Positions 11,516-16,423 of a stretch of DNA of 30,799 bases are shown piece after piece. Made by a program: the position numbers and the translations under genes. The stretch comes from a candidate division WOR-3 bacterium (lineage in GTDB: Bacteria > Hydrothermota > Hydrothermia > JBDRYB01), in NCBI GenBank assembly GCA_049969615.1, contig JBMFOM010000010.1, positions 1 to 30,799 of the forward strand, given 5' to 3'. Within the stretch, counting starts at the first letter, position 1. Every line of letters starts with the position of its first letter. The notes beneath the pieces are model-generated. The model made no database searches and had not been told where the DNA came from. It saw nothing but the letters and a program-made list of their open reading frames with translations.

Positions 11516-11620
11516 CCCACTCCCTGCGCAGGAACAAACATTTGAGACCTCTAATAAAGTAGTAATAACCTACTGGTTTGAGGGAGGAGCGCTTTGTCCA
11601 AGAGAACAGGGTTATAAGAG

Positions 11621-11730
11621 GGGGCCCCTGAAAAATCCCGCCAAGAGGGCATTTCCTCATGGTTCTCTTCCAGCTATGATGAGGCTCCCGGATAGGGACC
11701 AAGGACAAACCGGGATTTTTCAGGGGTTTC
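11621..11730. mobile_element. Putative MITE (IS5/IS1182-like ends) or structured RNA
   Basis: Perfect 16-bp inverted repeat CCCCTGAAAAATCCCG (11625-11640) / CGGGATTTTTCAGGGG (11711-11726) around a 70-nt core. Confidence 0.55.
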
Positions 11731-11902
11731 GTGTTCATAGACCCGGCACAAGTAGCCTAGTGCCGAAACTTTGCCCCATGATCCCTGGGATCCCTTATCA
11801 ATAAACGAATTGGGAAAAATGAGGTGTCAGGGTTGGGTATCCCTGCTTTGTCAGAGGTCTCCGCGATTTCCCGAGGACAGACCCCCCAAATGTGGCTTGA
11901 CA

Positions 11903-15515: not shown

Positions 15516-16229
15516 ATGAAGAGCGAGAGATGGAAATGGGCCCTGGTTGCTGGGGCCGCTCTGGCAGGCGGATGGACCTATGATCTTGCTGGAATCAGAG
15601 ATGATCCCGGGCTCCGGGGAAAGGTTGACTCTGCCTACACGGAATACCTTCTTCAACACGACACGGCCGCATACATTTACCACACCCTCGGATGGGATTC
15701 CTTGCCGCCGGAACTTCCCTATGTCCCAGGCTGTCCTTTGATCTACCCGAACAAGATATGCGTCTATGGAAAGATCATCCAGATTGACACCTTTCTCTCT
15801 ATTGGAGCGTTATACCTGATTGAGGTTAAGGAGCTTTTCTGGGGAAACTCTTCCTCGGATACCCTGAGAATATATCTAGCCTTCCCTACCATTTCTCACC
15901 CCCATCTACCCCTTGAGGGGGATAGCCTTTTTATAGCTGGCAGTCATTTCCCGTGGTGGTTCATAGTCTGCTATAAAGAGGCCAGGGACTCCCTCTACAA
16001 CGGAACTATACCTGATCCATACCTGTCATGGCGGCGTTTGTCAGGGGCGGTGCTGAGAGCTCTACAACGGAACTATACCTGATCCATACCCTGGTGCTTA
16101 TCCTCTTGGTGGATCTTGCTTCATTTACGGTACGGCGACACCACGGAAGATGGCGTCCTCGTTGACACCTACATAACCTGGCTACGCGAAGCCGCGGCCA
16201 TCAAGAGAAACTTTCTTGGAGGTAGATAA
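15516..16229 (+). pseudogene. Exported hypothetical protein disrupted by 67-bp and 5-bp insertions
   Basis: SD AAGGAGGT, signal-like N-terminus; removing the duplication+insert and one TACGG restores ...PDPYPGAYPLGGSCFIYGDTTEDG...NFLGGR*. Confidence 0.7.
15993..16090 (+). repeat. Perfect 31-bp direct repeat flanking a 36-bp insert
   Basis: CTCTACAACGGAACTATACCTGATCCATACC at 15993-16023 and 16060-16090. Confidence 0.97.
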
Positions 16230-16231
16230 CC

Positions 16232-16366
16232 ATGAATCCCATAACCCTTATGGCTTTTCTTGTTAGCTACACCCTGAGCGGTCACTACTGGCAATGGACC
16301 GCCTGCTGTGAGTCAGTCAGAGCTTTTGCTTGTGGGACAATGGGTTCACGGGAAAAGAAAGCGTGA
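16232..16366 (+). pseudogene. Probable truncated 5' end of an exported protein gene
   Basis: GGAGGT SD, MNPITLMAFLVSYTLSGHYWQW..., only 44 codons. Confidence 0.45.
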
Positions 16367-16423
16367 GATCTCAGGGTCTTGAAGTAATTTACCGGGCTCT
16401 GCCTCCTGCCTTAGAATATAAAG

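What the first reader, a model, noticed from the sequence alone, without database searches (positions are those of the whole stretch)
15993..16090. Single repeat-spacer-repeat unit inside a protein gene: candidate ectopic Cas1-Cas2 spacer integration
Seen: a perfect 31-bp duplication of coding sequence (LYNGTIPDPY) encloses an unrelated 36-bp insert, TGTCATGGCGGCGTTTGTCAGGGGCGGTGCTGAGAG, which itself reads like foreign coding DNA (VMAAFVRGGAE). The 67-bp unit knocks the gene out of frame. Known: Cas1-Cas2 inserts a ~30-40 nt spacer and duplicates a repeat-length target, and off-target integration occurs. Inference: this is a natural fossil of off-target acquisition or a nascent neo-array. IS target duplications are far shorter, and simple slippage would not add foreign sequence.
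Basis: partly seen in the sequence, partly recalled or inferred. Interest (0 to 1): 0.8.

Follow-up and report, generated by a model that had tools for sequence, protein, structure and literature searches.

The report
CRISPR spacer inserted into a gene
A small gene of an uncultured hot-spring bacterium is broken by a 67-base insertion with the size and layout of one CRISPR repeat plus one spacer, most likely because the cell's own spacer-inserting enzyme hit the wrong target; this is a rare natural trace of a reaction known mainly from the laboratory.

Summary
A perfect 31-nt direct repeat (15993-16023 and 16060-16090) flanks a 36-nt insert that is unique in the genome. An ortholog at 86% protein identity has one copy of the 31-mer and no insert, a clean 67-nt gap.

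The same genome has an intact type I-B cas operon (cas6, cas7, cas5, cas3, cas4, cas1, cas2). Next to it lies an array of 183 repeats of 30 nt with spacers of mostly 36-37 nt, so the native unit is 66-67 nt.

A genome-wide scan found three isolated repeat-insert-repeat units. All three have a period of 67: this one, one inside a copy of an intergenic repeat family (31+36), and one at the 3' end of ilvE (37+30). Two of the three targets match the native repeat in register at 14-15 of 30 positions.

Not shown: no protospacer was found and no reads span the site.

Verdict: this is probably off-target Cas1-Cas2 spacer integration, a new natural member of a known kind. This scan has noted similar scars on other DNA. 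The 37+30 unit is not explained.

The parts
15993..16023 (+). First copy of the duplicated target (neo-repeat), in frame with the gene's 5' part
   Evidence: 31 nt, 100% identical to 16060-16090; its first 30 nt match the native repeat (transcribed orientation) at 15 of 30 positions in register, empirical p about 0.010.
16024..16059 (+). 36-nt insert of spacer length and unknown origin
   Evidence: Unique in the own genome. Absent from ortholog L004. No exact match in viral, metagenome or genome collections. No match at up to 3 mismatches in 63 other genomes of the class. No hairpin (z -0.88). GC 0.64, against 0.49 +/- 0.09 for native spacers.
16060..16090 (+). Second copy of the duplicated target, contiguous with the gene's 3' part but shifted by +1
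   Evidence: The frame-0 stop TGA 16080-16082 lies inside it.
15516..16229 (+). Disrupted gene of a small family with no Pfam match (intact relatives 184-216 aa). It is now a pseudogene with two frame-breaking insertions.
   Evidence: no Pfam family; no homolog in 40 relatives; 4 homologs among 5.8 billion proteins, all contiguous across the site. DNA alignment to L004.
16126..16135 (+). Separate 5-nt tandem duplication (TACGG twice), a second frameshift (+2). 67+5=72, so the last 32 codons (16134-16229) are back in the frame of the start codon.
   Evidence: The stop at 16080-16082 lies between the two lesions, so this does not rescue the gene.

Best explanation
The 67-nt unit is the scar of an off-target (non-canonical) spacer integration by the genome's own type I-B adaptation module (Cas1-Cas2, with Cas4). 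The proposed steps are inferred from the known chemistry of Cas1-Cas2. The integrase, loaded with a prespacer of about 36 nt, attacked the two strands of ordinary coding DNA about 31 bp apart, at a site that partly mimics the CRISPR repeat. Gap repair then copied the 31 nt on both sides of the inserted spacer. The result is repeat-spacer-repeat geometry, a +1 frameshift and a dead gene. What is shown is the anatomy, the empty site in an ortholog, the presence and dimensions of the native system, the recurrence of the same 67-nt period at two other loci, and the in-register likeness of two targets to the native repeat. What is inferred is the enzyme, the foreign origin of the insert, and the timing. 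The event looks recent because the two copies are identical. The unit on contig C1 has one change in each copy and looks older.
For: (1) Native system. cas1 scores E 1.9e-94. Cas1 scores 446 bits on the type I-B model TIGR03641 (cut-off 304). Cas2, Cas4, Cas3, Cas5, Cas7 and Cas6 are all above their cut-offs. Beside cas2 lies an array of 183 identical 30-nt repeats, and further array fragments lie on four small contigs.
(2) Dimensions. Native units are 66 nt in 67 of 182, 67 nt in 66 of 182 and 68 nt in 33 of 182. The scar is 67 nt, split 31+36, and 36 nt is the commonest native spacer length.
(3) Empty site. L004 lacks exactly these 67 nt, and all 4 protein homologs are contiguous there.
(4) Recurrence. 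A mismatch-tolerant scan of periods 35-130 over the genome outside the arrays gives 3 single-period units at period 67. No other period from 35 to 100 has more than one hit, apart from tandem arrays. The second unit (C1:45731-45828, 31+36) sits in one copy of a repeat family of more than 100 copies, and all 6 other copies I aligned lack the 67 nt.
(5) Target likeness. The targets on C10 and C1 match the native repeat at 15/30 and 14-15/30. Both do so in the same orientation and register, sharing CTAT at repeat positions 14-17. Empirical p is 0.010 and 0.010-0.028.
(6) Literature. P. furiosus Cas1-Cas2, also with a 30-nt repeat, integrates in vitro at non-CRISPR sites 30-31 bp apart that resemble the repeat at its borders and centre (PMC6698737, section 13 read). 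In the type I-B system of H. hispanica, mid-repeat motifs anchor rulers, and disturbed spacing gives duplications of 29-33 bp (PMC4872114, abstract).
(7) The inserts are unique and unstructured, unlike mobile elements.
Against: No protospacer was found for any of the three inserts, so neither foreign origin nor a PAM is shown. Exact searches gave 0 hits in viral contigs, and 0 in metagenome and genome contigs for this insert. There were also 0 hits in 63 other genomes of the class at up to 3 mismatches. I did not measure how often native spacers find a match in these collections, so this absence carries little weight either way.
No reads span the site.
The flank on the leader side shows no likeness to the native leader.
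The insert's GC (0.64) is in the top 9% of native spacers.
The third unit (C11) is 37+30. No native spacer is shorter than 32 nt (0 of 182), a 37-nt duplication is 7 nt too long, and its target matches the repeat at only 11/30 (not significant). Either it arose differently, or the process keeps the sum constant in a way that the standard model does not predict.
Confidence: 0.75

Rival explanations
1. An undescribed process, not Cas1-Cas2, adds a fixed length (here 67 nt) made of a variable insert plus a compensating target duplication. The match to the CRISPR unit would be coincidental or indirect.
For: All three units sum to 67, although one is split 37+30 and not 31+36. An earlier scan note on another genome describes a constant 72-nt sum with a compensating duplication and judged it not CRISPR-like (e1-5079327; not checked by me).
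Against: The fixed length equals the modal native CRISPR unit. Two of the three targets resemble the native repeat in register. Unlike that note, the inserts here are not copies of the genome's own DNA and are not hairpins. No enzyme is known for such a process.
Confidence: 0.1
2. Repair of a staggered or resected double-strand break captured a short piece of filler DNA (end joining or template switching). It duplicated the overhang by fill-in, with no role for CRISPR proteins.
For: Such repair can in principle give a duplication plus unrelated filler. A second small lesion (the 5-nt tandem duplication) lies 36 nt downstream of the second copy, which could hint at a locally damaged region.
Against: It does not explain three independent events with the same 67-nt period, the spacer-length inserts, or the likeness to the repeat. 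Template switching should copy DNA present in the genome, but the insert has no source in a 98%-complete assembly.
Confidence: 0.07
3. Assembly artefact: a false loop in the assembly graph or a gap-filling error created the A-B-A structure.
For: This is a fragmented assembly (203 contigs) with clear scaffolding artefacts elsewhere, namely 77-80-nt direct repeats beside runs of N on six contigs. No independent reads could be laid across the site. The only other record of the truncated protein is from the same source (NCBI, 2 contigs).
Against: The site is 15 kb from either contig end and has no N nearby. The repeat lengths of 31 and 37 nt do not match the 77-80-nt artefacts. An artefact needs real reads that join the insert to the 31-mer on both sides. 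The C1 unit has one diverged base in each copy relative to the family consensus, which an artefact would not produce. An artefact has no reason to reproduce the CRISPR unit length three times.
Confidence: 0.05
4. Insertion of a tiny mobile element (MITE-like or hairpin element) with an unusually long target duplication.
For: The genome is rich in small intergenic repeats. Earlier scan notes report hairpin elements with 35-39-nt duplications in other genomes.
Against: The three inserts are unrelated to each other and each is unique in the genome. None folds better than shuffled controls in a meaningful way (z -0.88, -2.26 with only a 4-bp stem, -1.06). The finding's insert holds no inverted repeat (the other two inserts were not scanned for this).
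Confidence: 0.03

Closest known systems
Off-target (non-canonical) Cas1-Cas2 spacer integration giving 'neo-CRISPR' units (Nivala, Shipman and Church 2018, Nat Microbiol). The paper is not held. I saw it only as cited in 10.1101/148544, PMC6698737 and PMC7054753 (passages).
   Same: A spacer-length insert flanked by a repeat-length duplication of non-CRISPR DNA, in a genome with an adaptation module.
   Different: That work used E. coli type I-E with over-produced Cas1-Cas2, and natural cases were called circumstantial. Here the events are natural, in a type I-B bacterium from a metagenome, number three in one genome, and one of them kills a gene. No enzyme activity is shown here.
In vitro off-target integration by Pyrococcus furiosus Cas1-Cas2 (PMC6698737; abstract and section 13 read)
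   Same: A 30-nt native repeat. Off-target sites paired 30-31 bp apart on opposite strands. The sites resemble the repeat at its borders and centre.
   Different: That is a plasmid assay with purified archaeal proteins. Here there are chromosomal scars, a different repeat sequence and a different central motif (CTAT here, adenine-rich there).
Repeat-duplication rulers of the type I-B system of Haloarcula hispanica (PMC4872114; abstract only)
   Same: Same subtype and 30-bp repeat. Mid-repeat motifs anchor the cuts, and disturbed motif spacing gives duplications of the wrong size (29-33 bp). This fits duplications of 31 nt here.
   Different: Those experiments mutated a real repeat inside an array. 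A 37-nt duplication with a 30-nt insert, as on C11, was not described in what I read.
Isolated or orphan mini-arrays proposed to arise by off-target spacer acquisition (Shmakov et al. 2020, CRISPR J). Not held; seen only as cited in PMC13142298 (passage).
   Same: Two repeats and one spacer away from cas genes.
   Different: The repeats here are plain gene or repeat-family sequence, not CRISPR-like repeats, and the unit lies inside a coding region.
Ectopic spacer acquisition inside arrays of Streptococcus thermophilus (PMC7999890; search listing and abstract start only)
   Same: Integration away from the leader-proximal repeat.
   Different: There the target is still a genuine repeat inside the array, so nothing is broken.

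Membership tests
Off-target Cas1-Cas2 spacer integration scar | Direct duplication of the target with the length of the native repeat | tested here: met
   31 nt (readable as 30-32) against a native repeat of 30 nt. 30-31 bp is the off-target stagger in P. furiosus.
Off-target Cas1-Cas2 spacer integration scar | Insert with the length of a native spacer | tested here: met
   36 nt. Native spacers are 36 nt in 67 of 182 and 37 nt in 66 of 182.
Off-target Cas1-Cas2 spacer integration scar | Intact adaptation genes and an actively grown array in the same genome | tested here: met
   Cas1 (446 bits, type I-B model), Cas2 and Cas4 are full length and above their cut-offs. The array has 183 repeats. 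Activity itself is inferred from array size.
Off-target Cas1-Cas2 spacer integration scar | The ancestral site is empty (one copy of the target, no insert) | tested here: met
   Ortholog L004 has a gap of exactly 67 nt. All 4 protein homologs are contiguous there.
Off-target Cas1-Cas2 spacer integration scar | The target resembles the native repeat or the leader-repeat junction | tested here: inconclusive
   Repeat likeness is 15/30 in register, empirical p 0.010, and is shared with the C1 unit. No likeness to the leader. The C11 target is not significant (11/30).
Off-target Cas1-Cas2 spacer integration scar | The insert derives from a protospacer in foreign DNA with the system's PAM | tested here: inconclusive
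   0 matches in all collections searched. The native PAM was not determined.
Off-target Cas1-Cas2 spacer integration scar | The structure is present in the reads of the organism | not testable with these tools
   Only one run holds any of the stretch (share 0.08). Its single matching contig ends at 15983.
Functional (neo-)CRISPR array | Repeats that the system's Cas6 can process: a native-like 3' part giving the 8-nt handle, and/or a hairpin | tested here: not met
   The neo-repeat folds at -0.1 kcal/mol, no better than shuffles. Its last 8 nt match the native repeat's 3' end at only 3 of 8 positions (alignment).
Functional (neo-)CRISPR array | Further spacers added over time | tested here: not met
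   Exactly two copies and one insert at each of the three loci.
IS or MITE insertion with target-site duplication | An element with terminal inverted repeats, present in several copies, and a short duplication | tested here: not met
   The insert is unique in the genome. No inverted repeat lies inside it. The duplication is 31 nt.
Simple tandem duplication by slippage | The whole repeated unit is derived from the ancestral local sequence | tested here: not met
   The 36-nt insert has no counterpart in the ortholog. The nearby 5-nt TACGG duplication does fit this class.

The most novel reading that the evidence does not exclude
Ectopic integration by this type I-B module may obey a rule that the textbook model does not predict. 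One version is that the total added length is held at one CRISPR unit (67 nt) while duplication and insert trade off against each other (31+36, 31+36, 37+30). The other version is that integration at foreign sites is helped by identity between the 3' end of the incoming prespacer and the flank it displaces. On the second version, the C11 unit is a normal 31+36 event. Its neo-repeat starts with GTTC after a G, like the native leader-repeat junction, and the last 6 nt of its spacer (GGATAG) equal the 6 nt before the cut. Either version would be a new constraint on how Cas1-Cas2 chooses or measures targets. It would also link this case to the constant-sum scars noted elsewhere in this scan.
Probability: 0.15. 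Interest if true: 0.7.

Novelty: new member of a known kind. Interest (0 to 1): 0.5.

Why it matters
Off-target spacer integration is well documented with over-produced or purified integrases. According to the passages I could read, natural cases are few and circumstantial.

This case offers a clean natural record. There are three independent scars in one genome, each with an empty-site control or paralog control, beside an intact type I-B system of matching dimensions, and one scar has inactivated a gene. That shows a real fitness cost of adaptive immunity (self-mutagenesis by the integrase). It also shows a route by which repeat-spacer-repeat seeds arise in ordinary DNA.

The shared in-register CTAT core points to a candidate mid-repeat anchor for this integrase, which is directly testable. 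The 37+30 unit raises a specific question about how the two cuts and the prespacer length are coupled.

Tried and rejected
Reads. One public run held 8% of the sampled words. Of the 3 records laid, one 266-nt contig is identical over 15718-15983 and stops before the unit, and two are weak matches at 16317-16374. This says nothing on the junctions.

Protospacer searches. Exact searches for the window's 36-mer in viral, metagenome and genome collections all gave 0. Searches in viral contigs for the two other inserts gave 0. A search at up to 3 mismatches in the 64 genomes of the class found only the site itself. I ran no control with native spacers.

Orthologs among relatives. 0 of 40 relatives, including 2 of the same genus, have the gene. 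The empty site therefore had to come from a metagenome contig (3 loci, of which only L004 is close).

C11 ancestral state. The two genomes of the same genus end ilvE just where the 37-mer ends, and their intergenic DNA is not alignable. No clean empty site could be shown for that unit.

Lower-stringency scan. This added two weak hits, at C25 (period 66, 20 of 24 positions) and C44 (period 68). They are at the level expected by chance and I did not count them.

C1:45731 as a relic mini-array. I first read it that way. I rejected this because its 31-mer is part of an intergenic repeat family with more than 100 copies.

Leader likeness of the flanks: none seen.

The 67+5=72 frame restoration as a functional rescue. 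Rejected, because a stop codon lies between the two lesions.

Papers. Nivala 2018 and Shmakov 2020 are not held. Supplementary files were not consulted.

Full report
THE OBSERVATION

The window is contig C10 of a 2.06-Mb assembly with 203 contigs, 98% complete. The only public run holding part of the stretch is a hot-spring metagenome.

At 15993-16023 and 16060-16090 there are two perfect copies of a 31-mer, 67 nt apart, around a 36-nt insert. The insert occurs nowhere else in the genome at up to 3 mismatches. The best other blastn-short match is 18 nt. The ORF that starts at 15516 reads the first copy in frame, then runs out of the family's frame and stops at TGA 16080-16082.

THE GENE AND THE EMPTY SITE

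The gene has no Pfam family and no homolog in 40 relatives, two of them of the same genus. A search of 5.8 billion proteins gave 5 hits: the window's own truncated product and 4 homologs of 184-216 aa. All 4 homologs run straight through the site.

The DNA of the closest homolog (P0002, 86% identity, metagenome locus L004) aligns with the window with two gaps only. One gap is exactly 67 nt, leaving one copy of the 31-mer and no insert. The other is 5 nt, where the window has TACGG twice (16126-16135).

Both insertions are therefore derived in the window's lineage, and the gene is a pseudogene with two lesions. 67+5=72, so the last 32 codons are again in the frame of the start codon. The stop codon between the two lesions rules out a rescue, and a one-in-three coincidence is enough to explain the frame.

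The base before the 31-mer is G in L004 and before the second copy, but C before the first copy. The split can therefore be read as 30+37, 31+36 or 32+35.

The genome has one cas1 (E 1.9e-94). It lies in an operon on contig C1 whose products score above the curated cut-offs:
- Cas2.
- Cas1, type I-B model, 446 bits against a cut-off of 304.
- Cas4, Cas3, Cas5, Cas7 and Cas6.
- One unassigned 495-aa protein in the position of Cas8.

Downstream of cas2 lies an array of 183 identical 30-nt repeats. The 182 spacers are 36 nt (67), 37 nt (66), 38 nt (33), 35 nt (7), 39 nt (6), 40 nt (2) and 32 nt (1). Four small contigs carry fragments of arrays with a variant repeat and the same 65-70-nt spacing.

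The native unit is thus 66-67 nt, against 67 for the scar. The scar's insert has the commonest native spacer length, and its duplication is one base longer than the repeat.

IS 67 SPECIAL IN THIS GENOME?

I scanned the whole genome outside the arrays for direct repeats at every spacing. I used exact repeats at spacings of 20-300 and windows of 26 nt with at least 24 matches for periods 35-130. Three units that occur at a single period have period 67. No other period from 35 to 100 has more than one hit, apart from tandem arrays (a 48-nt hairpin array and a 33-nt coding repeat).

The second unit is C1:45731-45828, two 31-mers that differ at 2 positions around a unique 36-nt insert. It lies in one copy of an intergenic repeat family with more than 100 copies. 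All 6 other copies that I aligned have a single 31-mer and lack the 67 nt. Against their consensus, each of the two C1 copies carries one change, so this event is older.

The third unit is C11:6811-6914, two perfect 37-mers around a unique 30-nt insert, at the 3' end of an ilvE-like gene. For this unit no clean empty site could be shown. The two genomes of the same genus end the gene just where the 37-mer ends, and the intergenic DNA differs.

A laxer scan added two weak hits at periods 66 and 68. These are at chance level and I did not count them.

DO THE TARGETS LOOK LIKE THE REPEAT?

I compared each duplicated segment with the native repeat in its presumed transcribed orientation. That orientation places the leader next to cas2 and ends the repeat in the usual 8-nt handle sequence; the handle sequence is recalled knowledge, not taken from any call. 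I allowed both strands and every 30-nt register.

The C10 target matches at 15 of 30 positions and the C1 target at 14-15 of 30. Both match on the same strand and in the same register, with the extra base at the 3' end, and both share CTAT at positions 14-17. Random genomic 31-mers treated the same way reach 15 matches in 1.0% of trials and 14 matches in 2.8%. The C11 target reaches only 11 of 30, which is not significant. The flanks show no likeness to the native leader.

COMPARISON WITH THE LITERATURE

This pattern agrees with what I read about related systems:
- P. furiosus Cas1-Cas2, also with a 30-nt repeat, integrates in vitro at non-CRISPR sites paired 30-31 bp apart. Those sites resemble the repeat at its borders and centre (PMC6698737, section 13).
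- In the type I-B system of H. hispanica, two mid-repeat motifs anchor the cuts, and changed spacing gives duplications of 29-33 bp (PMC4872114, abstract).
- Off-target integration in vivo, giving 'neo-CRISPR' units, is credited to Nivala et al. 2018. I could not read that paper and know it only from citing passages. One of these says the evidence in two other species is circumstantial.
- Off-target acquisition is also listed as one proposed origin of isolated arrays (passage in PMC13142298 citing Shmakov et al. 2020; that paper is not held).

WHAT THE INSERT IS NOT

The three inserts are unrelated to each other and unique in the genome, and none forms a meaningful hairpin. They are therefore not copies of a small mobile element.

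The ortholog lacks the insert, so simple slippage is excluded. An IS target duplication would be much shorter (established knowledge).

An assembly artefact cannot be excluded without reads. The assembly does show scaffolding artefacts elsewhere, as 77-80-nt repeats beside runs of N. However, those have a different length. The site here is in the middle of a contig without N. The C1 unit has diverged copies. An artefact also has no reason to reproduce the CRISPR unit length three times.

WHAT REMAINS OPEN

No protospacer was found for any insert. I did not measure how often native spacers find a match in those collections, so the absence weighs little.

No reads span the unit. The single run has one identical 266-nt contig that ends at 15983. 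The truncated protein is on record only from one source, on 2 contigs, which is not independent support.

The insert's GC of 0.64 is high for a native spacer, in the top 9%.

The C11 unit is the main puzzle. As 37+30 it has a duplication 7 nt too long and an insert shorter than any of the 182 native spacers, yet the sum is again 67.

It can be read instead as a normal 31+36 event. On that reading its neo-repeat begins with GTTC after a G, like the native leader-repeat junction, and the last 6 nt of its spacer (GGATAG) equal the 6 nt before the cut. Such an identity is very unlikely by chance (about 1 in 4096 per end, by calculation).

So there are two possibilities. The two cuts and the prespacer length may be coupled in a way that is not described. 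Or identity between the prespacer's 3' end and the displaced flank may favour integration at foreign sites. I did not test that claim. In the present genome the match to the native unit and to the native repeat points to Cas1-Cas2.

VERDICT

The best explanation is an off-target spacer integration by the genome's own type I-B adaptation module (confidence about 0.75). This event killed a small gene of a family found in only a few genomes, and it is one of three such scars in the genome.

It is not a working neo-array. There is one spacer only, and the neo-repeat lacks the fold and the 3' end that Cas6 processing would need (inference).

The kind of event is known from the laboratory, and this scan has noted it on other DNA. 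I therefore class it as a new natural member of a known kind, of moderate interest, with one unexplained feature (the constant 67-nt sum) that could be worth more.

Noticed in passing
window 16126-16135: A 5-nt tandem duplication (TACGG twice), absent from the ortholog, is a second frameshift in the same gene. Together with the 67-nt unit it adds exactly 72 nt, so the last 32 codons return to the start codon's frame. A stop codon between the two lesions prevents any rescue.
   Followed up: yes
genome contig C11:6811-6914 (locus L007:1012-1115): Two perfect 37-mers around a unique 30-nt insert (period 67) at the 3' end of an ilvE-like gene. The duplicated piece includes the place where relatives have the stop codon, and the insert brings a new in-frame stop 13 codons later.
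   Followed up: partly
genome contig C1:45731-45828 (locus L013:1501-1598): A 31+36+31 unit (2 mismatches between the copies) inside one copy of the abundant intergenic repeat family. All 6 aligned family copies lack the 67 nt.
   Followed up: yes
window about 11544-11745, and more than 100 other places in the genome: A copy of an intergenic repeat family of about 170-200 nt. A 72-nt part of it also lies next to the trailer end of the main CRISPR array (C1:21240-21311). Its conserved 31-mer contains a CTATGATGAGG stretch that resembles the centre of the CRISPR repeat. Earlier notes of this scan describe the family as MITE-like.
   Followed up: partly
genome contigs C195, C197, C200, C202: Short contigs made only of CRISPR units whose repeat differs from the main array at its leader-proximal end. 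They are fragments of at least one further array, with 65-70-nt units.
   Followed up: partly
genome contigs C7, C65, C79, C110, C150, C187 (beside runs of N) and the starts of C5 and C185: Direct repeats of 77-80 nt that flank gaps or sit at contig ends. They look like scaffolding or overlap artefacts of the assembly, not biology.
   Followed up: no
genome contigs C184, C187, C188, C190, C196, C147 and the end of C58: Many near-identical 114-nt tandem units (38-codon repeats). This is probably one long repetitive gene that the assembler could not resolve.
   Followed up: no
genome contig C23:12750-12890 and the ends of C71, C113, C149: Tandem 48-nt units, each holding a short perfect palindrome (CCCCGAATAAATTCGGGG). 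A REP-like hairpin array that breaks the assembly.
   Followed up: no
locus L008:5849-7336 (-): The 495-aa protein in the Cas8 position of the type I-B operon matches no NCBIfam model at E 1e-5. It may be a divergent large subunit.
   Followed up: no
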